NCBI RefSeq assembly: GCF_964355755.1
Contig: NC_092672.1
Coordinates: forward strand, 21,217,237 to 21,281,236
DNA length: 64,000 nucleotides
Source of the DNA: Antedon mediterranea
Taxonomy: Eukaryota > Animalia > Echinodermata
Direction of reading: 5' to 3'
Below the pieces are notes generated by a model. The model did not search any database and was not told where the DNA came from. It saw only the letters and a program-made list of their open reading frames with translations. Shown in pieces: positions 14,661-55,036 of this stretch (its first letter is position 1; every line of letters starts with the position of its first letter). A program made the translations under genes and the position numbers.

Positions 14661-14674
14661 CACTTCTGACACCA
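14661..14674 (-). promoter_or_regulatory. Primer-binding site complementary to tRNA-Leu 3' end
   Basis: Minus strand TGGTGTCAGAAGTG immediately after the 5' LTR. Confidence 0.85.
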
Positions 14675-14851: not shown

Positions 14852-17800
14852 CTGCTACCACCCCTGTAAATAATTCTAAGCATGTGAAACAAAATACTGA
14901 TTATTGATTATTTGAAAGTGGATAATTTAAACACATAAAATATGTTGGTATCACATGGATGACACACACACACACACAGAGTGATATCACTTTGTTAGTT
15001 TTTCTGTCTTGTGCTGCTATTTGGTATTCTAGCTTTAAAGTTTAAAAAAAAATTAAGATAAAATGAGTTGAATATTTATTATTGAAATGAGTATTTATTA
15101 TTCAATTACATAATAAAAAATTAGTTTTGATAGCTGAATTCAATTAGCTTGGTGTTTATGAACATCTATTACTACATTAATACATAACTTGCTTGCTCAT
15201 CTTGATTGTGCTAAATACTTATGCTAGGGTTTTATTTCTAGATTTTTCGTCCTCTTTTAATACTATACAATCAAATATTTTAATGATGAGCTTATAGAAT
15301 AATAGGAGCTAAAGAGAACACTAAATATATTGTTAAAAGTGCCATAAGTAAAAAGTAATTATGTCGGATGAGTATCACCCTTCCTCATCATTACCTTGTC
15401 TTTAGTACCAAGATGGAAAACCAATAGGATGAGAAACTCGTTTCTCCCTACTGCAATGAGTCAATTCAATGAAACTTGGAAACATTGATCATTTTATGCT
15501 ATACCCTTACACACACCAATCTTGCTTGTATTTTGTATTTTAAACGATTTATTTTATCTGTATTTTACCAAATTTTAACATTTTTTAACTCATTTTTATA
15601 TCTTTATGTGAATTTTTAACTTGAACAAACAAAAATAATGTACATATTTTTCTGTGTTTGACCATGAATAAATGAATACTAGGCCGGTAATTTGTTTTAA
15701 ATAGTGAAGAGCAATGATATTAAAGGATGTAATATACATCCATTTTAGACCCATTTTTAGTTTTCCATAATACATTACAAGGGCCTATACATTTTATATT
15801 ACACAGTGCCCTCACTCATCATTTATTTTACTTTTTAAAATTTCTTTTTTTGTTCGCACTTTCAGTACCAGTGTACTGTTCAACAAAAACCAATGTACTT
15901 GACAGTGATTATTTTGCTTTTTATTAAAAGAAAGAAATTAACAAACACAAATAAAAAATAAAACTTGGTCTACTAAAATCCGTGAATAAGTGCATATATA
16001 TTAAAAGCTTTGGTTGCAGTGCAAGTTAGTTGACCAATAACCAGTAATTTGTTTAGTTTTGAGTAGGTGTACTGTAATAATATCATAGGCTATAAAACAT
16101 GTACATTTACTATCAACATTTATATCCTGATGAATTTCAACATTTCTTAAAAGCTAAATGGAACTTAGTCTACAACCTAGTTTTCCTGATAATATCTATC
16201 TGAGATCAAATTTTTTACACTTATTGATAGATTTGTTTGATAATAAAACAAAGGGATTGTCATTGGCAACCCTTATCACCATGGTTAGGAAAAGACTGAA
16301 TAACACAAATTGTTAAAGACTGTTCGTTTCATGTCCAGGATTTGAATTATTTATTTGTTATGCGGGGTAATTACTATTAGTCAATCAATGAATTCTACTA
16401 CAAATAGAAATATGTTGTAAATGCAATATTGTGGGCATGCAATGCATGTGGCGGGGCGTTTACTCAAGGAAATAGTCCAAATGATGTTCTATAGGGACGT
16501 AATATTCGTGGGGGATTATTCAAAAGAGGGTGTTTAATCAAATTGTCATCCATGCACCCTACCAGGTCCCCATCTCTGAAACCTATCAGCACCACAACCA
16601 CACAGGTTCAGTACATTTTCTAGTAAAAAGATCCCCACCTTCAATAACAACCCAGCAAATGGGCATTTGATATGGAAACACAATCTAAAATGTTTGTCAC
16701 CGAAGTTGAGCTTGAGTGACAGTCGATACTGAAACACACATGGAATTTGATTTAGTGATTTGAATAAAATAAATTTAATTAATTTCAAACAATGACAATT
16801 TATTTAATTTATTTAAAAATTGATATTAAAATATAAAGCATTTTGTTCATTTAATCTGGGGATGGTAATGGGGTAAAAAATAAATAATAATTTAAGTATA
16901 AGCTAGTAAAATAGTTTGTTTAGCAGAATTGCTATCGAAGTTTACTCAATAATATAGTTCTGCTGTTACCACTATTACATTCTTGAATGATTAATTAACA
17001 CCAAACATGTTGAGTGCTTTCTGCCTTTTTAGCTTACATACATTTTGCCATTTTGGTGCTTAATATCAGGTGAATAGTGGTAAAGTTGGCACCACATGCA
17101 GTTGATTGAAAGTATTAGTTAAATGTTCTTGATTTTAATTTCCAGGGCATGGACCTATAATCATTGATACAACCGAAGTATCATAACCCTTATCTATCTT
17201 ATCTAGTTTGTTAACTCTTCTCAAAATGATTTCACAAGGTTCTTCTAGATAGTGTAGTGTTTTTTCGTTTGTTTTTTTGATCACTTGCCTAATTTCAGGT
17301 CTTGAAATTTAAAAATGAATATTTGGTTGAAATAAATGAAAAAATGATGAAAATGAGAGCCTCTGTTTAGGCTGTACACTTTTATGCTTCAAACAGTATA
17401 GTTGTAAAACAAAATGGTAATGATAATGGTTTATTACATTTTATAGACTTGTTATTATGGCTACGTATGGCTGTGTATTAATTATATAAACAGTTTAATT
17501 TTCTATTAATACCAAACATGTTGGATAATCATTTGACTAATATCAAAACAATTTTAATATTTTAATAATATTATGCTTTTATAAATAATCATAATTTTAC
17601 TAAATAAAATACCAAAAAGTAATGAATATATTATTTAAAGTATTTATTATTCTAATGCACAACAAATTAGTTTTGCTTATTATTAGTCTGTGAATCTTTT
17701 TAGTTTCTTTGTAATAATAGTTATTTCTTGTTTATATTGTTTTAAAAGTATTTGTAGTAGAAAAATATTAGTTTAATATGTAGTATTTTTAATGATTTAA

Positions 17801-26060: not shown

Positions 26061-26111
26061 TAAGAAACACAAGAAACCAGCTGAACTAGACTTAAATGTT
26101 CATACAAACAT

Positions 26112-27270
26112 AGTAGTATAGTTCCCCGTTCAGTCCAATGAATAATTCATAAATTAATTAATGAATATTAATATATTAATTATGAGTGTACTATTTATGA
26201 ATAATTAATTAGGGGGTAGTTTTATGAATATTTAATAATTAAAATGGTATTATTTTTTAATAAATGAATAAATTAATTTGTTTAGCGATCTCAGTCCAAT
26301 GAAGAAGTAATAAGATATTTTAATATTCATGAATATTAATATATTTTTATTAATATGAGGGGTGTTTTAATGAATAATTAGTAAATGAGTGATAGTTTTA
26401 CGTATAATTTTTAAACGTAATACATGTATTACATGATGTTTAAATAAATATTTACATTTAAATATTAAAGACAATGTGCTTACCTTCATTGAGAAGTCTA
26501 ATGTACAGTTTAATGAATAAAATCCACAAGTTTAATCAGCTTTGATTACTGTTTTTTATGTTTGTATAAGGAATCATAACATCAATTCGCTGTCTTTCCA
26601 TGGAATTAGTTTACATGTGAGGCGTGGACAGGTCATTTTTTGTAATTCTGTGATTTTAGCGGGTATGTGACGTCATCCGGCAATGAACCAATAAGATTCC
26701 TTATAAGCATAATGCTAATGAAATTAGAATTCGTTGTCCTTGTTGAGATATTCAAAGATATTAAAAGTTATTTAATTATTTTATTAGTTTTTTATCCTTT
26801 TGTTTTTTCGTTTAGTTAAATAACCGCATTATTTTTTAAGGGTATTCCTTCAATATATAAAGATGGTAATAAATAAATAAATAAATAAAAATTAAAAATA
26901 ATGTGCTTACCTTCATTGAGAAGTCTGATATTATAGTATATTTTAATGAATAAAATCTACAAGTTTAATCAGCTTTGATTGCTGCTTTTTTTATATGTTT
27001 GTAAAAGAACAAAATCATAACATCAATCCGCTGTCTATTTTTTCAAATCCTGTGATTTTAGAGGGTATGTGACGTCATCAGGCAATGAACCAATAAGATT
27101 CCTTATAAACATAGCGCTAATGAATTAATCTACCAATCATAATTCGTTGTTTTTGTAAGCGTAGCGATCTCAGTCCAATGAATAAGTAATGAGATGTTTT
27201 AATATTCGATCGTGAATATTAATATATTTTTATTAATATGAGAGTGTTTTAACGAATACTTAGTAATTGC
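26112..27270 (+). promoter_or_regulatory. Terminal origin/enhancer-like repeat region (mirror at 37599-38757)
   Basis: TCAGTCCAATGAA x3 (~26130, 26291, 27170); duplicated block ~26473-26725 / 26900-27125, each with TGACGTCA, CCAAT and TTATAA; many ATGAATAT/AATT motifs. Confidence 0.6.
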
Positions 27271-27455
27271 GTTGGTATTTATTCTATGAATTATTGAATT
27301 AAGTATGATATATGTAAATTGTTTTATTTTTAACACGGTACCTGATTTACTATATATATATACAGATTGTTAATTTGAAAACAGTACAGTTTTTCTGCTT
27401 TAGATTTTTAACATTTAGTCATCTGTTCTTTATCCTGCTGTTATTATCTATCAGG

Positions 27456-28148
27456 ATGAATTCTACTCAAAATCAATCCGGTAGTAAGAGAGTTTTTTCT
27501 TCTTCAAAAGGACAGAGTCCTGTATCTAATCGAGTAAAGATACACAAAGTTTCACATCAACACGGCACAGCAGTACCTTCAAATTGTATGACGTTTTTAA
27601 TGGCGATTCAACCTCCACCTCCAATGAACGTTGATTTCAATAATGTATCTAATACTGAAGAAGACGAACATTATAGATCGAGAATAATTTCTGAAGAGGA
27701 GAGGATTGTATACGACGACACGTCATCGGTAGTTGACTACCACCTATTTCTGGCAAGAAAATCCGATGTAGAAGATGAGGTAGAAGATGAGGTGTTTGCA
27801 GAAGAGTACCTGAACCCTGTGCTGGAGGCGGAGATTAAGAAAGAAACTACCGAACTTGAGTACAAAGAAATAATGAGAACAATTGAGAAGGTTTTCATAG
27901 AAGAATTTATATTCATTCTGAAGGACATGGTTGAACGTTATAACTTTCACGGCTCAAGATATGAACAACTCTTAACATTTTTTCGACCAATTCTGGCATT
28001 GAAACTTGTGGACAATAGCGCTACCCATTTTGAATGGGCGCTAAACTACTTTCATTTACGTTGTATCAATGTTGATGCGTTCGATAAAGCCATAAAGTTG
28101 ATTACAAATGATTCAGAGCTTTTTAATAAGATTCTTTACCAATTGTAA
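27456..28148 (+). CDS. Orphan 230-aa protein: S-rich N-terminus, PPPP, acidic middle, helical C-terminus (left arm)
   Basis: Uninterrupted ORF in very AT-rich DNA with natural composition; first ATG at 27456 (track start 27375 is TTG); AATAAA downstream at ~28280. Confidence 0.7.
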   Translation: MNSTQNQSGSKRVFSSSKGQSPVSNRVKIHKVSHQHGTAVPSNCMTFLMAIQPPPPMNVDFNNVSNTEEDEHYRSRIISEEERIVYDDTSSVVDYHLFLARKSDVEDEVEDEVFAEEYLNPVLEAEIKKETTELEYKEIMRTIEKVFIEEFIFILKDMVERYNFHGSRYEQLLTFFRPILALKLVDNSATHFEWALNYFHLRCINVDAFDKAIKLITNDSELFNKILYQL

Positions 28149-28403
28149 TTTGTACAAATTTAAAATAATATCTTAACACTTTTTTAATTAATGTTACATA
28201 ATTTTATAATTCTTATTTCTTTTCGGTAAATTTATTATTATTATGGTTATAAATTATATTGAAATAGAATGTGTGTTAAAATAAAGGTTGTGTTTTTTTC
28301 TTTTAAAAGCAACAACAACAAAAATGAAATTTGATCTTTGCGTGTTATTTAAGTATTTGATTTATTTTTTTAATTTTCATTTGGGTGAATGAGGGTAATG
28401 AAT

Positions 28404-28626
28404 ATGGATGAGTACTTAAGAAAAGTATATTAAGATCCTAAGCATCCTGATAGTTTTGGTGGTGTGGACCGACTTTATCAAAATGTAAAAGACGATTTAA
28501 ATATTACCAAGAGACAAGTTCAAGACTGACTGAACAAGCAATACATTACACACATCCATTCAACGTAAATTCAAACAAAACTGGGTACTTGTAAGTGCTA
28601 TTGATGAACAATGGGGAATGGATTTG
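28404..28626 (+). pseudogene. Polinton-type integrase N-terminal remnant
   Basis: MDEYLRKVY*DPKHPDSFGGVDRLYQ...VQD*L then, after a frameshift, TLHTSIQRKFKQNWVLVSAIDEQWGMDL; matches recalled Polinton INT motifs YYDP.HP.SFGG and TLH.P.R..F.R..V.V..ID.QW.ADL. Confidence 0.85.
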
Positions 28627-28627
28627 G

Positions 28628-28810
28628 AAAAATAACGTGTATAAAATTTGATTCAGACAAACTGTTTGCAAAATCAAAGGTTTGACTCTAGATTTCCAAA
28701 AATCAAAGGAAGTCAATTTTGAAATAGTTGGTAGCATGGTACGAGGAATCGGACTGGAAAAAATAACAACAACTAATCCTAACAAAATAACCCGTAAACC
28801 AAAATCTCAC
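28628..28810 (+). pseudogene. Protein-primed DNA polymerase B C-terminal remnant
   Basis: KNNVYKI*FRQTVCKIKGLTLDFQKSKEVNFEIVGSMV..ITTTNPNKITRK resembles Polinton pPolB KNYAY..TVCKVKGFTL..NF..I...NP.KI.R. Confidence 0.8.
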
Positions 28811-29902
28811 TTAATATTTATTTTGTATTATAAATTTGTAAAAGTAGTTACCCTATTTTAATTCATGGTAAATTTATTTTTCGAATTAATTTAATTTGTT
28901 TTATTTTCTGTTGAATTTTTATTATTATTATGTTTGTAAAGTGTATTGCAATAGATTTGTTTAATAAAATAAATTAATTATGTTTTGACTTAATTTATGT
29001 CAGTGTAAATTTGTAAAAGTAGTTTTCCTATTTTAATTCATGATAAGTTTATTTCTTGACTTTACTTAATTTTTTTCTTTTCTGTTGAAGTAGAATGTGT
29101 ATTGAAATACATTTTGTTTTTAACATCAACAACAAAAAATGAAATTTTATCTTTGCGTGTTGTTTAATTCGTGTATGATGTTTTTCTAATTTATTTAAAA
29201 AAAAAAAAAAAAAAGAAAACAAGTTTTTGAATTTGTTAAATGTAATTGCAAACATACAAAATAAATGATTGCGATTAAAAATTATATTTTGTAAAGTGAA
29301 TTACAATAGAATGTGTATTGAAATACATTTTGTTTTTAACGTCAACAACAAAAATGAAATTTGATCTTTGCGTGTTGTTTAACTCGTGTATGAAGTTTTT
29401 GAATTTGTTAAATGTAATTGCAAACATACATATTAAATGATTGTGATTAAAAATATTCTGTTTACTTTTTATTTTTTATTTTAAACAGTAGTATTTTTAA
29501 CAGTAGTTATATTTTATATATAATAAGTAATATTACAAAAATAAACATACAAAATGTATAAAGTATAGACTTATTAAATTTAAATACAATTTCTTTTTTT
29601 CAAAATGAATTTCATTTTATACGTGTTTTCAATTTTAAATCTTTTAAGAAAGACACAATACGTACTGATATAAAAACGCACACAAAAGGAAACAAATTTG
29701 AGACGCACGGTTTGTAACGACACTTTCAATAAGAAGGCATATTATAAATGTATTTTTACAAAATTTATAAAGTAAATGTTTATTATTGAGAAATATACAT
29801 TTTAGATAAATGATAACACATCTAAAAGTAATTAGAGAGATCAATACAATATGGTGTTCATAATAATTTGTTTTGATGACTAGACGAAACATCTGAAGAC
29901 AT

Positions 29903-30467
29903 TCAACGAAAAACAAGCGTTAACACCATACCAGTCACTAAAAATGCCACTGCTTTGAAAAAAACATCTCCCTTCCTACACAGAGACAAATTCTGAACGA
30001 AAATAATAAATAAAAATAATTAGTAAACAAAACACGCGCATTATAAATAAAATGAATAATTTAAGAATATTTGTTAAACTACCCACGAACAAAAAACGAA
30101 ACATACTAACCGACTCATCGTCATTACGAAGTTCAAATAACGAAAACTTTTCCTTGAAAAATCCACAGGAGACACGTTTTACATTTTCTAACTGCAATTC
30201 AGTGTCACATTGTGTCGCAACACATGTACATACAACGAGTCCTGTCACAAGTCTGCCGACGTTTATTTTTCTATCGCTCATCATTTGTTCTAATACATAA
30301 TACAGCGCTTCCAAAGAAATATCTTTACACAATTCTAACACATTAAAATTGTTTTCCAACTCTTTACAAGCACGAATAGTACTCTGGAGGATGGGTGAAT
30401 CCAAAACAACTAACCCCGTCAATTTATATTCAATGTATGCTAAAACTACTTCCTCTAAATCAACCAT
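29903..30467 (-). CDS. Bcl-2-family protein, left-arm copy (exons 30467-30111 and 29992-29903; 148 aa)
   Basis: Exact mirror of the gene at 34402-34966. Confidence 0.82.
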
Positions 30468-31149
30468 AACGCTCGACAAAACAAATGATAATGGATGTAA
30501 TTACCAAGAAAGTTACAACTTAAAACCTTTATTTTTGTTTTTAAAAGAAGTTGTAACATAGAAACTAATTTTGTCAGGAAATGTGTTTTTATTATTTATG
30601 TGATTTATTTGTGTTTAGAAAGTTACAACATTAATATTTAATTTGGTAAAAAAATGTGAATATACGGAGCCGATTGTAATTTTTAATCCTTAGTATAGTG
30701 AGAGATTTTATAAACAAAAAAAGAGCGAACGGAAATTAATGATTGCAGATTAGACATATAGAAATGGATTGAAATTGGAAATCTACATGATCAAAGAAAA
30801 GAAACCCATTGTTCCGACAGAAGCTAATGACATTTACAAAGGATGACACACTTTGAATAGAATAAATACCGTATAACATAATTAAATTTTGTCAAGATAG
30901 TTGTCAAAAATAAATAAAATATATTATACTGAATTTACTTTGTACATTTATTTAATTTAGGCCGTAATTAGGTTTATTGTTCATTTATGATTGTGAAAAA
31001 AAAAAAATACATACTAATAAAACAGCATAGGCCTATAAAAAAAGTAAAAAAAAAAATAATGATTCAGTGTTATAATTTTATTTACCTGTCATTATGTTAA
31101 TAAAACATATTTAAATTTAATTTATGTCATGTTAGATATATTTTCAAGG

Positions 31150-31340
31150 ACATTTGTTACATACAAATAATTTTGTAAAGAAATTTGTTACATAAGATAA
31201 ATTTGTTAAGAAGTTTGTTTCATAAAAATATTTGTGAAGATAAATTTGTTACATAAAAATAATTTTGTAAAGAAATTTGTTACAAAAATTTATTTTTTAC
31301 AAGAAGTTTGTAACAGAAAATTATTTTGCAAAGAATTAGT
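31150..31340. repeat. Degenerate ~20-bp minisatellite (AATTTGTTACATAAA..), mirror at ~33530-33720
   Basis: Repeated ATTTGTTAC/TTTTGTAAAG units; similar units again at ~31690-31810. Confidence 0.6.
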
Positions 31341-31888
31341 TGCATCAATTGATTTTATCAAACGTATGTAATATAAAAAAATTATGTTGTTGTTGAATAA
31401 AATATTTTGTAATTCAGTCCATTTGCTCAGTAGTTTGTTTAAGTTGTTAAGTCTTGTTTGTGTAATATTCTTGTAAATAAAAGAATTTACTTTTAACCTT
31501 TGTAATTATTTTGTAAATATCATTTATGCATTTTTTTTTTTTTCGTAAATAATTGAATTTATTTATACTTTTTTTTTTGTATGGGAATCAATATTTGTTT
31601 ATAAATTTAATTGTGATTATAGATTTCTTCTTTATTTAGTATGTCGATTAATTTCAGATTCAGAAACATGTTACACAAGAAACAAACATTTTCATGAAAT
31701 TCGTTACATAACAAATAATTTATCAAGAATCTTTTTTTACATAAATTTAAATTTATCATTAATTTTGTTGTAAAATTTATTTTGTCATTAAATTTTGTTA
31801 CATAAAAAATAGTTGTTTCATGATTCTTGTTCTTTTTGTTCAGTACTTATATGAAAATTCAAGTTAAGAACGCAATGACAATGACTGG

Positions 31889-32070
31889 ATGTTTAGCGTG
31901 ATTAGAGGACCGCTTTCCTTCGGTAAATCGGTATTTGTTAACAATCTTTTAGAGAATAATTACTTTGACAAGTCGTTTGATGATATGACATAGTGTTATG
32001 GCGAATATCAAACTTAGTTTACGGAACTAATTACTGCAACATCTGACACAAGTTATAAGAAGGGTATACT
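31889..32070 (+). pseudogene. Polinton packaging (A32/FtsK-like) ATPase N-terminal remnant
   Basis: MFSVIRGPLSFGKSVFVNNLLENN..MT*CYGEYQT*FTEL..KKGI: Walker A GPxxxGKS and the (W)CYGE.Q motif; a second degenerate FTAII...GKSVF at ~32135-32195. Confidence 0.78.
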
Positions 32071-32214
32071 TATACATTGGATGTTTTCGATGTTAGTAAA
32101 TAACACAATGGTGAATAACTAGATGTTTACACCTTCACTGCTATAATTACAGTTAGAATGTCATAAAGGGTAAATCGGTATTCTTTAAAGAATTAGGCCT
32201 ATAAAACAATTAAA

Positions 32215-32654
32215 TTGTCGAGTTGCTTGACGTTAGAGAAGTAAATGTTGTTTGTGTTTACATGTGTGTCATAGTAGAGAATGAATTATAAACCATTACA
32301 TTGTCGAGTTTCTTGACGTTAGAGAAGTAAATGCTGTTTGTGTTTACATGCGTGTCATAGTAGAGTTTTGTGTTTACATGCGTGTCATAGTAGAGTTTGT
32401 AATTACATTTTTTTCTCAATATAAATGTATTATATGTTGTCGATAGTTGTTGAGAAAAAAATGTAATTACAAACTCTACTATGACACGCATGTAAACACA
32501 AAACTCTACTATGACACGCATGTAAACACAAACAGCATTTACTTCTCTAACGTCAAGAAACTCGACAATGTAATGGTTTATAATTCATTCTCTACTATGA
32601 CACACATGTAAACACAAACAACATTTACTTCTCTAACGTCAAGCAACTCGACAA
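32215..32654. repeat. Palindrome centre: direct repeats (~85-bp period x2, 30-bp unit x3) on each side of a 30-bp non-palindromic spacer (32420-32449)
   Basis: TTGTCGAGTT.CTTGACGTTAGAGAAGTAAATG twice and TTTGTGTTTACATG.GTGTCATAGTAGAG three times; spacer TATAAATGTATTATATGTTGTCGATAGTTG. Confidence 0.9.
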
Positions 32655-32798
32655 TTTAATTGTTTTATAGGCCTAATTCTTTAAAGAATACCGATTTACC
32701 CTTTATGACATTCTAACTGTAATTATAGCAGTGAAGGTGTAAACATCTAGTTATTCACCATTGTGTTATTTACTAACATCGAAAACATCCAATGTATA

Positions 32799-32980
32799 AG
32801 TATACCCTTCTTATAACTTGTGTCAGATGTTGCAGTAATTAGTTCCGTAAACTAAGTTTGATATTCGCCATAACACTATGTCATATCATCAAACGACTTG
32901 TCAAAGTAATTATTCTCTAAAAGATTGTTAACAAATACCGATTTACCGAAGGAAAGCGGTCCTCTAATCACGCTAAACAT
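32799..32980 (-). pseudogene. Packaging ATPase remnant, right-arm mirror
   Basis: Reverse complement of 31889-32070. Confidence 0.78.
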
Positions 32981-34401
32981 CCAGTCATTGTCATTGCGTT
33001 CTTAACTTGAATTTTCATATAAGTACTGAACAAAAAGAACAAGAATCATGAAACAACTATTTTTTATGTAACAAAATTTAATGACAAAATAAATTTTACA
33101 ACAAAATTAATGATAAATTTAAATTTATGTAAAAAAAGATTCTTGATAAATTATTTGTTATGTAACGAATTTCATGAAAATGTTTGTTTCTTGTGTAACA
33201 TGTTTCTGAATCTGAAATTAATCGACATACTAAATAAAGAAGAAATCTATAATCACAATTAAATTTATAAACAAATATTGATTCCCATACAAAAAAAAAA
33301 GTATAAATAAATTCAATTATTTACGAAAAAAAAAAAAATGCATAAATGATATTTACAAAATAATTACAAAGGTTAAAAGTAAATTCTTTTATTTACAAGA
33401 ATATTACACAAACAAGACTTAACAACTTAAACAAACTACTGAGCAAATGGACTGAATTACAAAATATTTTATTCAACAACAACATAATTTTTTTATATTA
33501 CATACGTTTGATAAAATCAATTGATGCAACTAATTCTTTGCAAAATAATTTTCTGTTACAAACTTCTTGTAAAAAATAAATTTTTGTAACAAATTTCTTT
33601 ACAAAATTATTTTTATGTAACAAATTTATCTTCACAAATATTTTTATGAAACAAACTTCTTAACAAATTTATCTTATGTAACAAATTTCTTTACAAAATT
33701 ATTTGTATGTAACAAATGTCCTTGAAAATATATCTAACATGACATAAATTAAATTTAAATATGTTTTATTAACATAATGACAGGTAAATAAAATTATAAC
33801 ACTGAATCATTATTTTTTTTTTTACTTTTTTTATAGGCCTATGCTGTTTTATTAGTATGTATTTTTTTTTTTTCACAATCATAAATGAACAATAAACCTA
33901 ATTACGGCCTAAATTAAATAAATGTACAAAGTAAATTCAGTATAATATATTTTATTTATTTTTGACAACTATCTTGACAAAATTTAATTATGTTATACGG
34001 TATTTATTCTATTCAAAGTGTGTCATCCTTTGTAAATGTCATTAGCTTCTGTCGGAACAATGGGTTTCTTTTCTTTGATCATGTAGATTTCCAATTTCAA
34101 TCCATTTCTATATGTCTAATCTGCAATCATTAATTTCCGTTCGCTCTTTTTTTGTTTATAAAATCTCTCACTATACTAAGGATTAAAAATTACAATCGGC
34201 TCCGTATATTCACATTTTTTTACCAAATTAAATATTAATGTTGTAACTTTCTAAACACAAATAAATCACATAAATAATAAAAACACATTTCCTGACAAAA
34301 TTAGTTTCTATGTTACAACTTCTTTTAAAAACAAAAATAAAGGTTTTAAGTTGTAACTTTCTTGGTAATTACATCCATTATCATTTGTTTTGTCGAGCGT
34401 T

Positions 34402-34966
34402 ATGGTTGATTTAGAGGAAGTAGTTTTAGCATACATTGAATATAAATTGACGGGGTTAGTTGTTTTGGATTCACCCATCCTCCAGAGTACTATTCGTGCT
34501 TGTAAAGAGTTGGAAAACAATTTTAATGTGTTAGAATTGTGTAAAGATATTTCTTTGGAAGCGCTGTATTATGTATTAGAACAAATGATGAGCGATAGAA
34601 AAATAAACGTCGGCAGACTTGTGACAGGACTCGTTGTATGTACATGTGTTGCGACACAATGTGACACTGAATTGCAGTTAGAAAATGTAAAACGTGTCTC
34701 CTGTGGATTTTTCAAGGAAAAGTTTTCGTTATTTGAACTTCGTAATGACGATGAGTCGGTTAGTATGTTTCGTTTTTTGTTCGTGGGTAGTTTAACAAAT
34801 ATTCTTAAATTATTCATTTTATTTATAATGCGCGTGTTTTGTTTACTAATTATTTTTATTTATTATTTTCGTTCAGAATTTGTCTCTGTGTAGGAAGGGA
34901 GATGTTTTTTTCAAAGCAGTGGCATTTTTAGTGACTGGTATGGTGTTAACGCTTGTTTTTCGTTGA
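34402..34966 (+). CDS. Bcl-2-family protein, right-arm copy (exons 34402-34758 and 34877-34966; 148 aa)
   Basis: BH4-like EEVVLAYIEYKLTG, BH3-like IRACKELENNF, BH1-like VLEQMMSDRKINVGRLVT; phase-0 intron GTTAGT...TACTAAT...TTTTCGTTCAG; exon 2 gives tail anchor FFKAVAFLVTGMVLTLVFR*. Confidence 0.82.
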
Positions 34967-36058
34967 ATGTCTTCAGATGTTTCGTCTAGTCATCAAAACA
35001 AATTATTATGAACACCATATTGTATTGATCTCTCTAATTACTTTTAGATGTGTTATCATTTATCTAAAATGTATATTTCTCAATAATAAACATTTACTTT
35101 ATAAATTTTGTAAAAATACATTTATAATATGCCTTCTTATTGAAAGTGTCGTTACAAACCGTGCGTCTCAAATTTGTTTCCTTTTGTGTGCGTTTTTATA
35201 TCAGTACGTATTGTGTCTTTCTTAAAAGATTTAAAATTGAAAACACGTATAAAATGAAATTCATTTTGAAAAAAAGAAATTGTATTTAAATTTAATAAGT
35301 CTATACTTTATACATTTTGTATGTTTATTTTTGTAATATTACTTATTATATATAAAATATAACTACTGTTAAAAATACTACTGTTTAAAATAAAAAATAA
35401 AAAGTAAACAGAATATTTTTAATCACAATCATTTAATATGTATGTTTGCAATTACATTTAACAAATTCAAAAACTTCATACACGAGTTAAACAACACGCA
35501 AAGATCAAATTTCATTTTTGTTGTTGACGTTAAAAACAAAATGTATTTCAATACACATTCTATTGTAATTCACTTTACAAAATATAATTTTTAATCGCAA
35601 TCATTTATTTTGTATGTTTGCAATTACATTTAACAAATTCAAAAACTTGTTTTCTTTTTTTTTTTTTTTTTTAAATAAATTAGAAAAACATCATACACGA
35701 ATTAAACAACACGCAAAGATAAAATTTCATTTTTTGTTGTTGATGTTAAAAACAAAATGTATTTCAATACACATTCTACTTCAACAGAAAAGAAAAAAAT
35801 TAAGTAAAGTCAAGAAATAAACTTATCATGAATTAAAATAGGAAAACTACTTTTACAAATTTACACTGACATAAATTAAGTCAAAACATAATTAATTTAT
35901 TTTATTAAACAAATCTATTGCAATACACTTTACAAACATAATAATAATAAAAATTCAACAGAAAATAAAACAAATTAAATTAATTCGAAAAATAAATTTA
36001 CCATGAATTAAAATAGGGTAACTACTTTTACAAATTTATAATACAAAATAAATATTAA

Positions 36059-36241
36059 GTGAGATTTTGGTTTACGGGTTATTTTGTTAGGATTAGTTGT
36101 TGTTATTTTTTCCAGTCCGATTCCTCGTACCATGCTACCAACTATTTCAAAATTGACTTCCTTTGATTTTTGGAAATCTAGAGTCAAACCTTTGATTTTG
36201 CAAACAGTTTGTCTGAATCAAATTTTATACACGTTATTTTT
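36059..36241 (-). pseudogene. pPolB C-terminal remnant, right-arm mirror
   Basis: Reverse complement of 28628-28810. Confidence 0.8.
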
Positions 36242-36242
36242 C

Positions 36243-36465
36243 CAAATCCATTCCCCATTGTTCATCAATAGCACTTACAAGTACCCAGTTTTGTTTGAAT
36301 TTACGTTGAATGGATGTGTGTAATGTATTGCTTGTTCAGTCAGTCTTGAACTTGTCTCTTGGTAATATTTAAATCGTCTTTTACATTTTGATAAAGTCGG
36401 TCCACACCACCAAAACTATCAGGATGCTTAGGATCTTAATATACTTTTCTTAAGTACTCATCCAT
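36243..36465 (-). pseudogene. Integrase N-terminal remnant, right-arm mirror
   Basis: Reverse complement of 28404-28626 with the same lesions. Confidence 0.85.
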
Positions 36466-36720
36466 ATTCATTACCCTCATTCACCCAAATGAAAATTAAA
36501 AAAATAAATCAAATACTTAAATAACACGCAAAGATCAAATTTCATTTTTGTTGTTGTTGCTTTTAAAAGAAAAAAACACAACCTTTATTTTAACACACAT
36601 TCTATTTCAATATAATTTATAACCATAATAATAATAAATTTACCGAAAAGAAATAAGAATTATAAAATTATGTAACATTAATTAAAAAAGTGTTAAGATA
36701 TTATTTTAAATTTGTACAAA

Positions 36721-37413
36721 TTACAATTGGTAAAGAATCTTATTAAAAAGCTCTGAATCATTTGTAATCAACTTTATGGCTTTATCGAACGCATCAACAT
36801 TGATACAACGTAAATGAAAGTAGTTTAGCGCCCATTCAAAATGGGTAGCGCTATTGTCCACAAGTTTCAATGCCAGAATTGGTCGAAAAAATGTTAAGAG
36901 TTGTTCATATCTTGAGCCGTGAAAGTTATAACGTTCAACCATGTCCTTCAGAATGAATATAAATTCTTCTATGAAAACCTTCTCAATTGTTCTCATTATT
37001 TCTTTGTACTCAAGTTCGGTAGTTTCTTTCTTAATCTCCGCCTCCAGCACAGGGTTCAGGTACTCTTCTGCAAACACCTCATCTTCTACCTCATCTTCTA
37101 CATCGGATTTTCTTGCCAGAAATAGGTGGTAGTCAACTACCGATGACGTGTCGTCGTATACAATCCTCTCCTCTTCAGAAATTATTCTCGATCTATAATG
37201 TTCGTCTTCTTCAGTATTAGATACATTATTGAAATCAACGTTCATTGGAGGTGGAGGTTGAATCGCCATTAAACACGTCATACAATTTGAAGGTACTGCT
37301 GTGCCGTGTTGATGTGAAACTTTGTGTATCTTTACTCGATTAGATACAGGACTCTGTCCTTTTGAAGAAGAAAAAACTCTCTTACTACCGGATTGATTTT
37401 GAGTAGAATTCAT
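36721..37413 (-). CDS. Orphan 230-aa protein, right-arm copy
   Basis: Mirror of 27456-28148, differing by one F/C substitution. Confidence 0.7.
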   Translation of the reverse strand: MNSTQNQSGSKRVFSSSKGQSPVSNRVKIHKVSHQHGTAVPSNCMTCLMAIQPPPPMNVDFNNVSNTEEDEHYRSRIISEEERIVYDDTSSVVDYHLFLARKSDVEDEVEDEVFAEEYLNPVLEAEIKKETTELEYKEIMRTIEKVFIEEFIFILKDMVERYNFHGSRYEQLLTFFRPILALKLVDNSATHFEWALNYFHLRCINVDAFDKAIKLITNDSELFNKILYQL

Positions 37414-40400
37414 CCTGATAGATAATAACAGCAGGATAAAGAACAGATGACTAAATGTTAAAAATCTAAAGCAGAAAAACTGTACTGTTTTCAAATTAAC
37501 AATCTGTATATATATATAGTAAATCAGGTACCGTGTTAAAAATAAAACAATTTACATATATCATACTTAATTCAATAATTCATAGAATAAATACCAACGC
37601 AATTACTAAGTATTCGTTAAAACACTCTCATATTAATAAAAATATATTAATATTCACGATCGAATATTAAAACATCTCATTACTTATTCATTGGACTGAG
37701 ATCGCTACGCTTACAAAAACAACGAATTATGATTGGTAGATTAATTCATTAGCGCTATGTTTATAAGGAATCTTATTGGTTCATTGCCTGATGACGTCAC
37801 ATACCCTCTAAAATCACAGGATTTGAAAAAATAGACAGCGGATTGATGTTATGATTTTGTTCTTATACAAACATATAAAAAAAGCAGTAATCAAAGCTGA
37901 TTAAACTTGTAGATTTTATTCATTAAAATATACTATAATATCAGACTTCTCAATGAAGGTAAGCACATTATTTTTAATTTTTATTTATTTATTTATTTAT
38001 TACCATCTTTATATATTGAAGGAATACCCTTAAAAAATAATGCGGTTATTTAACTAAACGAAAAAACAAAAGGATAAAAAACTAATAAAATAATTAAATA
38101 ACTTTTAATATCTTTGAATATCTCAACAAGGACAACGAATTCTAATTTCATTAGCATTATGCTTATAAGGAATCTTATTGGTTCATTGCCGGATGACGTC
38201 ACATACCCGCTAAAATCACAGAATTACAAAAAATGACCTGTCCACGCCTCACATGTAAACTAATTCCATGGAAAGACAGCGAATTGATGTTATGATTCCT
38301 TATACAAACATAAAAAACAGTAATCAAAGCTGATTAAACTTGTGGATTTTATTCATTAAACTGTACATTAGACTTCTCAATGAAGGTAAGCACATTGTCT
38401 TTAATATTTAAATGTAAATATTTATTTAAACATCATGTAATACATGTATTACGTTTAAAAATTATACGTAAAACTATCACTCATTTACTAATTATTCATT
38501 AAAACACCCCTCATATTAATAAAAATATATTAATATTCATGAATATTAAAATATCTTATTACTTCTTCATTGGACTGAGATCGCTAAACAAATTAATTTA
38601 TTCATTTATTAAAAAATAATACCATTTTAATTATTAAATATTCATAAAACTACCCCCTAATTAATTATTCATAAATAGTACACTCATAATTAATATATTA
38701 ATATTCATTAATTAATTTATGAATTATTCATTGGACTGAACGGGGAACTATACTACTAAACATGTAACAAGTTCAGAGTGTATCCAACATTTAACATTAT
38801 GAAATATTTTAGACCACCGACAATGATGATCACCATTGCTTTGCAAAGTCTGCAGTTTCTGTAATTATTCATTCATATTTATCTCCATCATCCAACATTA
38901 TCAAACAAAACTGTTTTGAGGATAAGCATAGTTATTGTAAGGTTCAACTTTAATAATTTTTAAAAGTTTTACACACAACACAAATAAGTAAAGCTTTCCC
39001 AGTTTATTCATAGTATACATTTAACAATACATAATATTTATTTCTACTGATACTGTACAAGCAATGCTAAATACTACTAAAGCTTAATAATATACTACAT
39101 TTGGCCTCTTGGGGGCTACCACTCATATGACATCGCTGTATTAAAGGTCCAGTGTGTTGTCACAGGAGCGAGTAAATCAAATTGTTGTTATTAAGTATAT
39201 CGGAAGGATGTAAGTGACATCCGTTAGGTAAATTGTGGAATTTGGGGGAAAAATAATTCCCCAGAATTATACCAGCCAAATGAGCGAATAGCATGAGTAA
39301 CATATGAGTTAGCGCCTGTGTTGAAGTTAGGTGTTGGATGATGCCGGGGGATGGCTGGGTGGGAAGATTGAAAAGTTTGTACAACTATTAAACGGCTAAT
39401 TTAACAATGAAGTGTGCTATTATGTATCTTAGTAAACAACTAAAATACTCTGAATTCCCATTGGTTGCCAATTAGAAATTAGCCTATCCTACATTTTGTG
39501 GTTCCACTATTAGATATACCCGTTGGTCTGTAGAAATACATTGTCAATTACTGTGGTTGGAACTTTAATTACCTGTAGAAACAATATACCATTCATCCTA
39601 ACACTTCTGTAACTCTGAAATCTACCCACATTATATACCACATCCTTAGTTAAAAGAAAGTACTTGTGCTCTGTATAAACTATAATTTATTACTTTAAAT
39701 TTCCTTTAACATTTTCTAACATTAATGTTAAAAGATTACTTTTAAAAGAACTTATATAGACAAATTTCAAATTTCAGTATAAGCTATTTAACTATTTAAA
39801 AAATAAATATGCCAAGTTATATTTTAATCAATGGATGTAAATGACTTTGCATTATATAAATGTATTACAATTGTTTATAAACTCTTCATTTTTGTAGCAC
39901 AAATAATATTGACCTTGGTTTATCCTTGTTTCAGTTGGATGGTCCTACCTTCATTACATTCATTTTCACAGAGTAAATTAAAATTTATCTCCTTTAAAAT
40001 TAAATTCAATAAACTTTATCCCATAACAATTTTCCTATGAATAAATAGATGGAATTATTCTTAGTTTATTGATTTAATGCAAACCAATTTCATACACATT
40101 TACACATCCAGAAATATTCTGTTCATTTTACTACTATTATACAATTCATTTATTAGCTTTGTTATGGGTTTAACAAGCTAAATTCTGTCTGTCATATAAT
40201 ATAATAGTCAAAGGCAAAAAATGTCTTAATAGGCAAACAATTTCTATTAATCATACATCCTAATAATCTATCCATAATTGTTTCATAATCACATAATAAT
40301 TTTGATTTTTATTGTGCTACAATAAAGTTCAAATTACACAGTACAATCTCTATTCTTTTGTACATAAATGATAGAGACGCACTTTAAACAAAAATTGAAA

Positions 40401-40619
40401 AAATAAACGGTGTTGTAAAGAATATTATCAGATGACTATAATATAGATAATATAACGTTACGTTTCTGGTGTTTTTATGGTCAAATTTTTATTTTTGTTT
40501 TATTGTTTATTGTGGCTAGAACTACACTGTTTCCTTCGCTAGGCTGATCCTAATGCTAATCCTAATGCTCCTAATGTTGACATGATTATCATGGAACGAT
40601 AAGTTCCCCACCTTCAAAT

Positions 40620-51628: not shown

Positions 51629-51897
51629 CTTAACCTCCTACTGTGACATGTGTTTATATAAGTCCAACTTTGATAGGCAGGTCGTTAAACCTTTTGATCA
51701 TTGCCGACTTCTGCTAGTTTTTGCCTGACCATTGACCTTGCAACATACTGAAGAATGTACCTTGTCCTAATAAATCAATTACAAGAGAGCTAATAATATC
51801 ACAGGGATATAGGATTCAAGTCATTAATCACCTGCTTAGTTGATATATCTGATAAGGATTTTGACCAAAAAGTTCTAATGGGGATGTACACCTAATG

Positions 51898-52480
51898 TTT
51901 CACACCAAAACTCCGGAGTGTCTCCGGAGACACCCCGGGGTTTATGACCATTCAAAACGTCGAGAAACTCCGGAGATACCCCTTTCACACCAACCTAGCA
52001 ACTCCGGGGTTTATAAAATAAATTTGTAAATGTCGCCCTCTATTTTGTTTGTTTACATAGCGACGATCATTAGAATCATTTTAATTAATAATTATGTTTA
52101 ATTTAATAATTAATTTCAAAAGTCTCAGAAGTAATATAATATTTTATTGATACTACTTATTATTTTCTAGACCCGCTATATATTTTTTACAAATATTTAA
52201 AGTATTTTGAAATAAAACTAAAGCAATGAGTGATCGTGTGAGGATGACCTTTTGACCCGAAACACTCCGGAGTTTGATGTTGGTACCTTTCACACCAAAA
52301 CTCCGGGGTGTCCCCGGAGTTCGCTCTCCGGAGAATGTTCAGCTGTTCAATCCCGCAGTTTTAAACTCCGGAGTTGCTTGATTTTACCTTTCACACCAAA
52401 CAGCGGGACGTCAACTCCGGGGTGTCTCCGGGGTGTCTCCGGAGTGTCTCCGGAGTTTTGCTTTTGGTGTGAAAGGGGTA
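51898..52480. mobile_element. MITE with TTTCACACCAAA / ACTCCGGAG subterminal repeats (copy 2 at ~54296-54867)
   Basis: Multiple TTTCACACCAA and CTCCGGAG motifs; right end TTTTGGTGTGAAAGGGGTA. Confidence 0.55.
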
Positions 52481-52682
52481 TCAGTCTAATTTGGCATTTT
52501 TAGTCATGTGCAAATGAGACTCTATAGCTCACTATGTCGGTCGGTAGGTCGGTCGGTAAACACTAACTCAAATTTGCGCATGTGACTGCAGCCATGTATA
52601 TGGCCTTGTTAATCATCTATTTAAATAATAATAAATACAACATAGTATAAAACTGACTCCAAATAACGAGAGGCAAGCCATG

Positions 52683-52721
52683 ATTCAACGTTTCGATCTT
52701 TATTGTATCATCATCAGGAAT
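52683..52721 (-). ncRNA. Minimal type I hammerhead ribozyme motif (Penelope-like)
   Basis: Minus strand AUUC-CUGAUGA-U-GAU(loop)AUC-GAAAC-GUU-GAAU with palindromic stem III AACGUU. Confidence 0.55.
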
Positions 52722-52989
52722 GATTACAGAATGTAAGCATTATTGTTATTATTATGGAATGTTTTATTAAATAGGTAACAGCAGTGAGCATCAGTGCTTT
52801 GCACGGGTAGTAACAAAGTGCGAGGCAGCGAGGCACGCGAGGCAGGGAAGGCATGCGAGGCAAGTCAGAAATTTATGCGAGGCATCGTTTTACCATCATC
52901 GAAAAATGCGAGGCATCATTTTATCATTTCTCAAAATTGCAAGGCAGGAAATCACCGAAATTGAAGTAGCCTAGGCCTAGGCCCGCTAG

Positions 52990-53830
52990 GCTAGTTTCCT
53001 TTTGCACCTGCCTTGTATTTTAACCAACTTTATCCTGAATACCACAGCTTAGAATTAGTAGGCCTACTTTAATGAAGAAAAATCACATAAAAGTAACAAT
53101 AAATCCATTAAATTGCTAATTTTACAGACGTTGTTTTTCTCGCATTTCGCACACTCAATGTTCAATATTTTGGTTTCTATGGAACGCCAAAAGAGCAAAA
53201 TTAATTAGATGGCTAAAAACTCTGTGGAATCCATTTATATTTAACGCATTATTTGGTGAAAATCAAGTACAATTTCAATAGATTTTGTCACTGTCAGTAA
53301 GGAAAAATGTTACTGTTCACCGGTGTACTGTTGATAATGTACACGGTTTCGGTAACCTTTTAAAGAATAAAATAGAAAAATTCATCATAATATCCTTAGT
53401 AGGATGTCCTAGGTCTAGACTAGGTAGTGATGTTGATTTAGGATCGATTATTATTCTTTGAAAACAGAACAGTATCAGCAGTAACATATTACAGCATTTT
53501 TATTGACAAATTAACAAATATATTGAAATAAAACGTGTTTTTCACCAATAAATGCATGAGAAATTGACGCATTCCACTGAGTTTTAGTCCTCTATTATCG
53601 TTGGTCTTTTGGCGCTCCATAGAAACAAAAATATTGAACATTGAATAAGTGAAATTCGCGAACAGTGTGCGAGAAACACGCCTGTAAAATCATTAATTTA
53701 AGGATTTATTTGTTACTTTTTATGTGATTCTTTCATTAAAGTACTCATGAGGTATACTTCTAAGGTGTGGTATTCACACGATAAAGTTGTTATCAAATTT
53801 GGAGTAAAAATACAAGCGAAGGAAACTAGC
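52990..53830. repeat. Diverged ~280-bp inverted repeat (fold-back MITE)
   Basis: ~52990-53265 mirrors ~53535-53830, e.g. CAATGTTCAATATTTTGGTTTCTATGGAACGCCAAAA vs TTTTGGCGCTCCATAGAAACAAAAATATTGAACATTG. Confidence 0.7.
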
Positions 53831-55036
53831 GCCAGGTTTATTAGTACGTACATGGACAACAATAAATAAAAATCGTTCGTAATATACCTAGCTTACTAAA
53901 ACAGGAATAGTGTATCATTATTAAATATTACACCAATTATTATTATATCAAAATTGATTAAATTATTTTCTACATAGGCCTCTTATCTAGGTTAGGGCTA
54001 AGCATATTAGCTAAAGTTTAATTTTAGGCCTAGTATTACAATTGTCGGACGTAAGTCTTTTTTCACACGCGCTAACAGGTCGTTAAACCTTTTGATCATT
54101 GCCGACTTCTGCTAGTTTTTGCCTGACCATTGACCTTGCAACATACTGAAGAATGTACCTTGTCCTAATCAATCAATTACAAGAGAGCTAATAATATCAC
54201 AGGGATATAGGATTCAAGTCATTAATCACCTGCTTAGTTGATATATCTGATAAGGATTTTGACCAAAAAGTTCTAATGGGGATGTACACCTAATGTTTCA
54301 CACCAAAACTCCGGAGTGTCTCCGGAGACACCCCGAGGTTTATGACCATTCAAAACGTCGAGAAACTCCGGAGATACCCCTTTCACACCAACCTAGCAAC
54401 TCCGGGGTTTATAAAATAAAATTGTAAATGTCACCCTCTATTTTGTTTGTTTACATAGCGACGATCATTAGAATCATTTTAATTAATAATATGTTTAATT
54501 TAATAATTAATTTCAAAAGTCTCAGAAGTAATATAATATTTTATTGATACTACTTATTATTTTCTAGACCCGCTATATATTTTTTACAAATATTTAAAGT
54601 ATTTTGAAATAAAACTAAAGCAATGAGTGATCGTGTGATGATGACCTTTTGACCCGAAACACTCCGGAGTTTAATGTTGGTACCTTTCACACCAAAACTC
54701 CGGGGTGTCCCCGGAGTTCGCTCTCCGGAGAATGTTCAGCTGTTCAATCCCGCAGTTTTAAACTCCGGAGTTGCTTGATTTTACCTTTCACACCAAACAG
54801 CGGGACGTCAACTCCGGGGTGTCTCCGGAGTGTCTCCGGAGTTTTGCTTTTGGTGTGAAAGGGGTATCAGTCTAATTTGGCATTTTTAGTCATGTGCAAA
54901 TGAGACTCTATAGCTCACTATGTCGGTCGGTAGGTCGGTCGGTAAACACTAACTCAAATTTGCGCATGTGCTATTTAAATAATAATAAATACAACATAGT
55001 ATAAAACTGACTCCAAATAACGAGAGGCAAGCCATG

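What the first reader, a model, noticed from the sequence alone, without database searches (positions are those of the whole stretch)
34759..34876. Hidden intron in the Bcl-2-like gene at the ancestral BH2 position, revealing a tail-anchor exon missed by the ORF track
Seen: G|GTTAGT donor after ...ELRNDDES, TACTAAT branch-like site, T-rich tract and CAG acceptor. Phase-0 splicing yields NLSLCRKGDVFFKAVAFLVTGMVLTLVFR*, a typical tail anchor. Known: BCL2 and BCL2L1 have an intron right after BH2 'NGGW', and read-through gives beta isoforms. Inference: the gene was captured from host genomic DNA rather than mRNA. Intron retention stays open in frame (163 aa) and could give a second C-terminus. 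Mirror intron at 29993-30110.
Basis: partly seen in the sequence, partly recalled or inferred. Interest (0 to 1): 0.75.

Follow-up and report, generated by a model that had tools for sequence, protein, structure and literature searches.

The report
Spliced Bcl-2 gene in palindromic Polinton
A virus-like jumping element that forms a 12.6-kb DNA palindrome in an animal genome carries two copies of a highly diverged, likely cell-death-blocking (Bcl-2-type) gene whose predicted intron sits roughly where animal Bcl-2 genes have theirs, which likely means the element took the gene from host chromosomal DNA and would still rely on host splicing to give the protein its membrane anchor.

Summary
The intron is very probably real (about 0.85). 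Donor, branch-like site, T-rich tract and CAG acceptor are where stated. The downstream exon is the only tail-anchor-like exon among 76 acceptor-like sites in the window. Near-identical copies keep the splice sites and gather indels in the intron, and an ~80%-identical sister family has a canonical donor at the same place. The gene is Bcl-2-like by weak but concordant profile and fold evidence. BH2 (GGW) itself is lost, and the intron maps only to within about two codons of the ancestral boundary. The 163-aa read-through 'isoform' is not conserved: other copies break that frame. The gene lies in a 12,646-bp near-perfect palindrome with Polinton/Maverick ends ((AGT)2, 6-bp target duplication) and a dead integrase remnant; the 'mirror intron' is simply the other arm. 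Bcl-2 cargo in adintoviruses and intron-bearing Maverick cargo are both published. The combination (ancestral-type intron, core-less giant palindrome) was not found in my searches, though other AI notes report it in other genomes. Splicing, DNA-level capture and anti-apoptotic function are inferred.

The parts
26106..26111 (.). Left 6-bp target-site duplication (AAACAT)
26112..38757 (.). Non-autonomous Polinton/Maverick-derived element, 12,646 bp, near-perfect palindrome; ends AGTAGT ... ACTACT
   Evidence: end motifs and 6-bp TSD as in PMC8097293 passages
26112..32419 (.). Left arm (6,308 bp)
   Evidence: 3 mismatches between the arms
27456..28148 (+). 230-aa ORF of unknown family (mirror 36721-37413, - strand)
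   Evidence: no family or relative found
28404..28626 (+). Broken N-terminal remnant of an rve integrase: stops and a frame change (mirror 36243-36465, - strand)
   Evidence: E 6e-16 to P0005, which carries Pfam PF00665; 73% and 68% identity in two frames
29903..29992 (-). Mirror exon 2 (tail anchor)
29993..30110 (-). Mirror intron
30111..30467 (-). Mirror exon 1
31898..32011 (+). Short broken P-loop-like stretch, by eye like a Polinton packaging ATPase N-terminus (mirror about 32858-32971)
   Evidence: only weak Pfam ATPase-type hits (E 0.036, 0.12); the likeness is recalled, not tested
32420..32449 (.). 30-bp non-palindromic centre spacer
32450..38757 (.). Right arm (6,308 bp)
34402..34758 (+). 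Exon 1, 119 codons: Bcl-2-like helical domain with a BH1-like motif at residues 67-73 and no GGW
34759..34876 (+). Predicted phase-0 GT-AG intron, 118 nt; branch-like TACTAAT at 34844-34850
34877..34966 (+). Exon 2 coding part: 29 residues and stop; predicted tail anchor (best 17-residue Kyte-Doolittle mean 2.14, two residues from the end, last residue Arg)
35085..35090 (+). AATAAA poly(A)-signal-like hexamer 119 nt after the stop
   Evidence: a motif match only
38758..38763 (.). Right 6-bp target-site duplication (AAACAT)

Best explanation
The segment 34759-34876 is a predicted spliceosomal intron in a two-exon, likely Bcl-2-type gene that lies in both arms of a 12.6-kb palindrome with Polinton/Maverick ends and only a broken integrase, and the intron was likely inherited with the gene when an ancestral Polinton took it from host chromosomal DNA. 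Shown: the element's ends, target duplication, palindrome and integrase remnant; the splice motifs; several distinct copy types that keep the donor. Inferred: host RNA polymerase II transcribes the gene and the host spliceosome removes the intron. The product would be a 148-residue protein, with a six-helix Bcl-2-like core on exon 1 and a tail anchor on exon 2 that targets it to mitochondrial or ER membranes. There it would most likely act as viral Bcl-2 proteins do, holding off apoptosis in cells where the element or its autonomous helper is active. Because Polintons replicate as DNA, with no reverse-transcription step, the intron was never purged. The palindrome is best read as a fold-back derivative of one end of a Polinton: it keeps both termini and would be moved in trans. 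Rough odds: intron real 0.85; Bcl-2 fold 0.85; intron homologous to the ancestral BH2 intron 0.65-0.7; pro-survival role about 0.6.
For: Splice anatomy and composition; 1 of 76 acceptor-like sites gives such an exon. Copy comparison: one contig spanning 34490-34975 has 21 other letters and 9 gap letters. The gaps are a 1-nt and an 8-nt insertion, both in the intron. Of the 18 of 21 substitutions listed, 7 lie in the 118-nt intron, 7 in 269 nt of exon 1, 4 in exon 2, and none in the donor hexamer, branch-like site or CAG. A second contig (34802-34975) leaves branch site and acceptor unchanged in the 9 of 10 differences listed. An ~80%-identical family (81% over 90 nt, 79% over 120 nt, no gaps, joint marked 'same length, diverged') has a start codon at the place of 34402 and the canonical donor hexamer at the place of 34759-34764; its GT shows in both studies. 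In that family 5 of the 8 listed differences in 34425-34514 (17 in all) are at third codon positions. Bcl-2 likeness: Pfam PF00452 E 1.2e-4; only PDB sequence hit is fowlpox Bcl-2 FPV039, E 0.18; 45 of 48 Foldseek PDB rows shown are Bcl-2 family; ranks 1-6 of 48,161 chains in the Foldseek-free search, Z 6.2-6.7, rmsd 4.1-5.2, 102-113 aligned; 49 of 50 rows. Animal Bcl-2 genes, sponge and Trichoplax included, end the first coding exon at the W of GGW with the TM on the next exon (PMC8998228 passages). Mavericks carry intron-bearing cargo (10.1101/2022.07.12.499685 passages); adintoviruses carry Bcl2 homologues (PMC8502044 passage and supplement text).
Against: The Pfam score (23 bits) is below the family cut-off (31.4). 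The models have mean pLDDT 50 and 42, no Foldseek row reaches E 0.001, and all Z are under 8, which the tool calls common for helical bundles. The search of viral structures gave no clear Bcl-2 signal. GGW is absent, so the intron cannot be mapped exactly. The donor has T at +3, a weaker than usual match. The read-through frame is open, which happened in 9-15% of shuffles and 5 of 433 overlapping T-rich windows, and its tail is also hydrophobic (KD 3.12). Among near-identical copies, only 3 of 7 exon-1 differences in the spanning contig are at third positions. Of the 12 indels shown (25 in all), 9 lie in exon 1, though all of these belong to one low-depth decayed copy. One listed difference at codon 28 in the diverged family of one sample would by itself give a stop; 9 of its 17 differences there are unlisted, so this is open. 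The acceptor and exon 2 of the diverged family were not seen.
Confidence: 0.62

Rival explanations
1. The intron is real but arose inside the element (intron gain near the domain end) after the gene was acquired without introns, so its position tells nothing about how it was captured.
For: GGW is gone and the position maps only to within about 2 codons. No cellular relative was found. A second acceptor-like site sits just before the 230-aa ORF, so the element may gain or use introns generally.
Against: The phase (0), the place at the end of the Bcl-2 domain and the split of core from anchor all match the gene structure described for animal Bcl-2 genes. A random gain would hit this phase and a 5-codon window in a 148-codon gene only about 1 time in 100 (my arithmetic: 5/148 x 1/3).
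Confidence: 0.17
2. There is no splicing: the gene is the 163-aa read-through ORF with its own hydrophobic tail, and the downstream 'exon' is chance.
For: The frame is open through the intron (9-15% in shuffles); the tail is strongly hydrophobic and is the only confident part of the model.
Against: The tail has intron-like composition. Two copy types have frame-breaking insertions there that lead to stops at 34788 and 34793, and a third type loses the stop at 34891 while keeping the exon-2 frame. The diverged family has a canonical donor at the same place.
Confidence: 0.08
3. Regulated intron retention gives two products with different C-termini, as in the beta isoforms of BCL2 and BCL2L1 (recalled).
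For: Weak donor (+3 T); open read-through frame in this copy and in the near-identical contigs.
Against: The retained frame is broken in other copies that keep both exons, so it is not under visible constraint.
Confidence: 0.07
4. The gene is a dying passenger or not a Bcl-2 at all: a helical ORF in a decaying non-autonomous element with no current function.
For: Sub-threshold Pfam score and low-confidence models; the integrase beside it is broken; a decayed copy exists.
Against: Gap-free colinearity with an ~80%-identical family and third-position bias; three different searches of solved structures or their sequences put Bcl-2 proteins first.
Confidence: 0.06

Closest known systems
Bcl2 homologues of adintoviruses (animal Polintons/Mavericks), Starrett et al. 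2021, PMC8502044 (passages and text of Supplementary Fig. S2 read; Fig. S1 slides not readable)
   Same: A Bcl-2-like accessory gene in an element with Polinton ends and an rve integrase.
   Different: Those are described as ORFs in gene-complete elements; no intron was mentioned in the passages found. Here the gene is split and the element has lost PolB, capsid and protease genes and is a palindrome.
Intron-bearing cargo genes of nematode Mavericks (wasp proteases, krma kinases), 10.1101/2022.07.12.499685 (passages read)
   Same: Host-type genes with introns carried near the terminal repeat and integrase, read by the authors as taken up from the host.
   Different: Different cargo family; those elements are largely complete, with ordinary terminal repeats.
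Cellular pro-survival Bcl-2 genes (Bcl-2, Bcl-xL, Mcl-1, A1; sponge and Trichoplax homologues), PMC8998228 (passages read)
   Same: Two coding exons, core on the first and TM on the second, boundary in phase 0 at the end of the domain.
   Different: No GGW, BH1 tryptophan replaced, only 119 residues before the intron, 10-23% identity in fold alignments; lies in a mobile element.
Vertebrate Mavericks, PMC8097293 (passages read)
   Same: (AGT)2//(ACT)2 ends and a perfect 6-bp target duplication.
   Different: There the terminal repeats are 46-1,447 bp and core genes are intronless and intact; here the repeats are 6,308 bp, make up the whole element, and no core gene is intact.
Poxvirus Bcl-2 proteins such as fowlpox FPV039
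   Same: Small, diverged Bcl-2 fold; only PDB sequence hit (E 0.18).
   Different: Cytoplasmic poxviruses do not splice (own knowledge); this gene would need the nuclear spliceosome.

Membership tests
Canonical multi-motif Bcl-2 family (Pfam PF00452) | Score at or above the Pfam gathering cut-off | tested here: not met
   23 bits against 31.4; E 1.2e-4, residues 36-100 to profile 15-79
Canonical multi-motif Bcl-2 family (Pfam PF00452) | Bcl-2 helical-bundle fold | tested here: inconclusive
   Six helices in the expected order; Bcl-2 proteins fill the top ranks, but pLDDT 42-50 and Z at most 7.3
Canonical multi-motif Bcl-2 family (Pfam PF00452) | BH1 motif | tested here: inconclusive
   Residues 67-73 match FPV039's BH1 at most places but with Val for Trp
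Canonical multi-motif Bcl-2 family (Pfam PF00452) | BH2 motif ending in GGW | tested here: not met
   Residues 109-119 hold no Gly or Trp. Filed therefore as Bcl-2-like, not as a canonical member
Canonical multi-motif Bcl-2 family (Pfam PF00452) | C-terminal transmembrane anchor on its own exon | tested here: met
   Exon 2 alone: KD17 2.14, ends in Arg and stop; depends on the predicted splice
Canonical multi-motif Bcl-2 family (Pfam PF00452) | Exon boundary right after the BH2 Trp, phase 0 | tested here: inconclusive
   Phase 0 met. Model residue 115 pairs with Bcl-xL 186, Bcl-2 193, Bak 175, Bax 156, Mcl-1 310; with the Trp two residues further (numbering recalled) the intron is 2 codons late
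Canonical multi-motif Bcl-2 family (Pfam PF00452) | Binds BH3 peptides and regulates apoptosis | not testable with these tools
   No assay
Polinton/Maverick (adintovirus) elements | (AGT)2//(ACT)2 ends | tested here: met
   definition in PMC8097293
Polinton/Maverick (adintovirus) elements | Perfect 6-bp target-site duplication | tested here: met
   AAACAT on both sides
Polinton/Maverick (adintovirus) elements | Terminal inverted repeats | tested here: met
   6,308 bp each, 3 mismatches; far longer than the 46-1,447 bp in PMC8097293
Polinton/Maverick (adintovirus) elements | Intact rve integrase | tested here: not met
   Only a broken N-terminal remnant
Polinton/Maverick (adintovirus) elements | Protein-primed PolB, ATPase, protease, capsid genes | tested here: not met
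   Only two ATG-started ORFs of 100 aa or more per arm, neither of these families; a possible ATPase scrap. Filed as a non-autonomous derivative, not as an autonomous member
U2-type spliceosomal intron | GT donor, branch site, pyrimidine tract, YAG acceptor | tested here: met
U2-type spliceosomal intron | Splice sites kept in related copies | tested here: met
   Donor kept in near and ~80% copies; branch site and acceptor unchanged among the listed differences of two near copies; acceptor of the ~80% family not seen
U2-type spliceosomal intron | Excision shown in RNA | not testable with these tools
   See Tried and rejected

The most novel reading that the evidence does not exclude
Core-less giant-palindrome satellites of Polintons are a distinct class of fold-back hitch-hikers that shed every replication and capsid gene yet keep, in double dose, a spliced Bcl-2 gene taken from host chromosomes. 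The gene would keep germ or stem cells alive while the element and its helper mobilise, and the BH2 intron would outlast the BH2 motif itself as a fossil that marks otherwise unrecognisable viral Bcl-2 genes.
Probability: 0.3. Interest if true: 0.7.

Novelty: new variant of a known kind. Interest (0 to 1): 0.47.

Why it matters
If true, it shows how a nuclear DNA virus-like element acquires a death regulator: as a piece of chromosome, intron included, not as a retrocopy. The intron position then dates and traces the capture even after the protein has drifted beyond sequence searches. It also means that ORF-based annotation of Polintons misreads such genes, giving a false hydrophobic tail and missing the true anchor. 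That a core-less, multi-copy palindrome keeps this gene in frame while its integrase decays would point to selection on host-cell survival at the level of a selfish element, which RNA data and dN/dS can test directly. The separate ingredients are already published, which caps the surprise.

Tried and rejected
Expression: no RNA holder listed. Of 5 runs (one organism, 2 studies), 1 was guessed to be RNA, but its contigs run through the intron and upstream non-coding DNA like the others. No GT..AG joint at 34758-34877 was listed in the runs laid (all 5 runs laid at least once). This is no evidence either way. Relatives of exon 1: none at E 0.01 among 42 candidates. The 2 hits among 1.84 billion representatives were summed matches to repeat proteins and were rejected. 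None in viral contigs; the Atlas could not read the sequence; exact look-ups of the window's ORFs were blank. No relatives of the 230-aa ORF among 181 candidates. P0005 gave no usable viral locus. Search of viral structures: nothing clear. No whole genome is held, so the host's own Bcl-2 genes, the copy number and an autonomous parent could not be looked for; contig depths were not used as copy numbers. A host gene caught in a chance inverted duplication was rejected because of the Polinton ends, target duplication, integrase remnant and several copy types. An assembly fold-back artefact is unlikely (unique flanks, matching target duplication, 30-bp spacer, 3 arm mismatches) but not excluded without long reads. 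An alternative donor GT at 34755 is out of phase with exon 2 and is lost in several copies. The bacterial promoter scan does not apply. Literature: searches (listings seen) gave no paper on an intron-bearing Polinton Bcl-2 or on giant-palindrome Polintons. Most subscription papers are not held; Kapitonov and Jurka 2006 and Krupovic and Koonin 2015 could not be read, and Repbase was not available, so non-autonomous palindromic Polintons may be on record. Passages of PMC6431247, 10.64898/2026.10.13.758929 and 10.1101/2024.01.15.575659 added nothing on this point.

Full report
1. Observation. Exon 1 runs 34402-34758 (357 nt, 119 codons), followed by G|GTTAGT, 118 nt ending in CAG, and a 29-codon exon with a stop at 34964-34966. 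TACTAAT lies at 34844-34850 and an AATAAA at 35085. The intron is 23% GC and 55% T, against 36% and 38% GC for the exons. Exon 2 has the same GC profile by codon position as exon 1, and the read-through tail does not. Of 76 acceptor-like sites in the window without the right arm, 11 lead in frame 0 to a 20-45-residue peptide and 1 to a tail-anchor-like one, this exon (criteria set knowing the exon). The mirror copy is exact.

2. Self-comparison shows a near-perfect palindrome: arms 26112-32419 and 32450-38757 (6,308 bp each, 3 mismatches) around a 30-bp spacer. It begins AGTAGT, ends ACTACT and is flanked on both sides by AAACAT. These are the (AGT)2//(ACT)2 ends and 6-bp target duplication of Mavericks (PMC8097293, passages), where terminal repeats are 46-1,447 bp. 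Each arm holds a broken integrase remnant (28404-28626; 73% and 68% identical in two frames to P0005, which carries Pfam rve), a 230-aa orphan ORF, a possible ATPase scrap (by eye; weak Pfam hits only) and the Bcl-2-like gene. No PolB, capsid or protease ORF is present. The surrounding DNA is AT-rich and holds a Gypsy-type retrotransposon; I read it as animal from this and from the Bcl-2 gene. So this is a non-autonomous Polinton derivative, and the mirror intron is a by-product of the palindrome.

3. Is the protein a Bcl-2? Sequence searches find no relatives. Pfam PF00452 matches residues 36-100 at E 1.2e-4 but below the cut-off. The only PDB sequence hit is fowlpox FPV039 (E 0.18), with a matching BH1-like stretch. 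Single-sequence models are poor (pLDDT 50 and 42) but give six helices in Bcl-2 order. Bcl-2 proteins make up 45 of 48 Foldseek rows shown (none at E 0.001), ranks 1-6 and 14 of 50 rows in the Foldseek-free search (Z 6.2-6.7 at the top, whole-domain cover, while most unrelated rows cover only residues 49-119), and 49 of 50 rows. Each signal alone is under the tools' noise level; their agreement is the evidence. The viral structure library gave nothing clear. GGW is absent, so I file it as Bcl-2-like, not as a canonical member.

4. Intron position. Animal pro-survival Bcl-2 genes, and those of sponge and Trichoplax, end the first coding exon at the W of GGW and carry the TM on the next exon (PMC8998228, passages). 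In most fold alignments model residue 115 pairs with Bcl-xL 186, Bcl-2 193, Bak 175, Bax 156 and Mcl-1 310. By recalled numbering that is two residues before the tryptophan, which puts the intron (after residue 119) two codons late; a few rows are shifted by three more. Extending the Pfam match without gaps puts the profile's end at residue 121, so the intron would be 1-2 codons early. Phase agrees. The position is therefore ancestral-like within about two codons, not shown to be identical.

5. Natural copies as a test. Contigs of 5 public runs of one organism (2 studies) were laid on the gene; the tables are cut (40 of 78 substitution rows and 12 of 25 indel rows shown). More than two sequence types occur in one sample, so the family is multi-copy. 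(a) A contig spanning 34490-34975 has both its insertions (1 and 8 nt) in the intron. Its substitutions are 7 in 118 intron nt, 7 in 269 exon-1 nt and 4 in exon 2 (18 of 21 listed), none in donor, branch-like site or acceptor. (b) Another type has a 5-nt insertion in the intron. Read against the window's frames, the 1-nt and 5-nt insertions lead the retained intron to stops at 34788 and 34793. (c) A further type changes 34891-34892, which removes the read-through stop but leaves exon 2 open. The 163-aa form is thus not conserved. Its open frame here is modestly unusual (9-15% of shuffles; 5 of 433 overlapping T-rich windows). (d) An ~80%-identical family is colinear without gaps over the two stretches that align (34425-34514, 34646-34765). 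It has a start codon at the place of 34402 and the canonical donor hexamer at the place of 34759-34764, and 5 of its 8 listed differences in the first stretch are at third positions. At this identity a kept donor is supportive, not decisive, and that family's acceptor and exon 2 were not seen. Against: one listed difference at codon 28 in that family (one sample) would alone be a stop, with 9 of 17 differences unlisted. One low-depth copy is decayed, with 9 listed indels in exon 1. Only 3 of 7 exon-1 differences in contig (a) are at third positions.

6. Mechanism. Shown: ends, target duplication, palindrome, dead integrase, splice motifs, donor kept across copies. Inferred: an ancestral Polinton picked up a chromosomal two-exon Bcl-2 gene. 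Since Polintons copy DNA to DNA in the nucleus (own knowledge; PMC6431247 passage on PolB and integrase), the intron stayed while the protein drifted and lost BH2. A fold-back event then doubled one end of an already decayed element into a palindrome that keeps both termini and would be copied and integrated by a helper's PolB and integrase. The spliced 148-residue product would be tail-anchored and most likely pro-survival, like viral Bcl-2 proteins. Fold scores do not separate pro- from anti-apoptotic members (Bax and Bak rank as high as Bcl-xL), so direction rests on analogy.

7. Comparison with what is known. Adintoviruses carry Bcl2 and IAP homologues (PMC8502044, passage and Fig. S2 text; the Fig. 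S1 slides, which may show gene structures, could not be read). PMC11071296 (passages) notes anti-apoptotic homologues in mammal-associated adintoviruses. Nematode Mavericks carry intron-bearing cargo between terminal repeat and integrase (10.1101/2022.07.12.499685, passages). I found no paper on a BH2-type intron in a Polinton Bcl-2 or on core-less giant palindromes (searches; listings only; key older papers not held). Unchecked AI notes from this scan describe Bcl-2-carrying palindromic Polintons and two-exon Polinton Bcl-2 genes in other genomes. I did not test them; they suggest recurrence but are not support. None shared sequence with this locus.

8. Verdict. Observation confirmed; interpretation partly supported. 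New variant of a known kind; interest 0.47.

Noticed in passing
window 27400-27458 (+) and mirror: A T/C-rich tract and CAG (27452-27454) sit one base before the ATG of the 230-aa ORF, and the 46 codons upstream read like T-rich intron. The ORF may have an upstream exon or a 5' UTR intron, so this element family may splice more than one gene.
   Followed up: no
window 34802 and 32430-32449: In run X1 a contig follows the intron's 3' half and exon 2 but, before 34802, continues in DNA that by eye resembles the palindrome's centre spacer. This may be a deletion derivative of the palindrome that lost exon 1, and would show the palindromic form exists in other copies.
   Followed up: no
window 26112-27250: The terminal 1.1 kb holds three CCAAT-containing repeats and two TGACGTCA (CRE/ATF-like) repeats (families D6, D8); adenovirus terminal repeats bear similar host-factor sites (recalled).
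   Followed up: no
window 31136-31335 and mirror: Degenerate tandem array of about 31-bp AT-rich units inside each arm.
   Followed up: no
window 10181-14855 (-): Gypsy-type LTR retrotransposon: 181-bp direct repeats 98.9% alike at 10181-10360 and 14675-14855, with gag/protease, RT, RNase H and integrase in separate ORFs.
   Followed up: partly
window 51678-55796: Nested inverted and direct duplications of 0.2-0.9 kb at 96-98% identity; a separate fold-back-like structure.
   Followed up: no
window 1-930, 38759-40509, 57823-59422: Related host-like segments at 85-92% identity; the DNA right of the element matches 57823-58038, so the element sits in or beside a local segmental repeat.
   Followed up: no
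window 61944-62387 (-): 147-aa ORF that by eye resembles the C-terminal part of a LINE reverse transcriptase (recalled likeness; Pfam gave no such hit).
   Followed up: no
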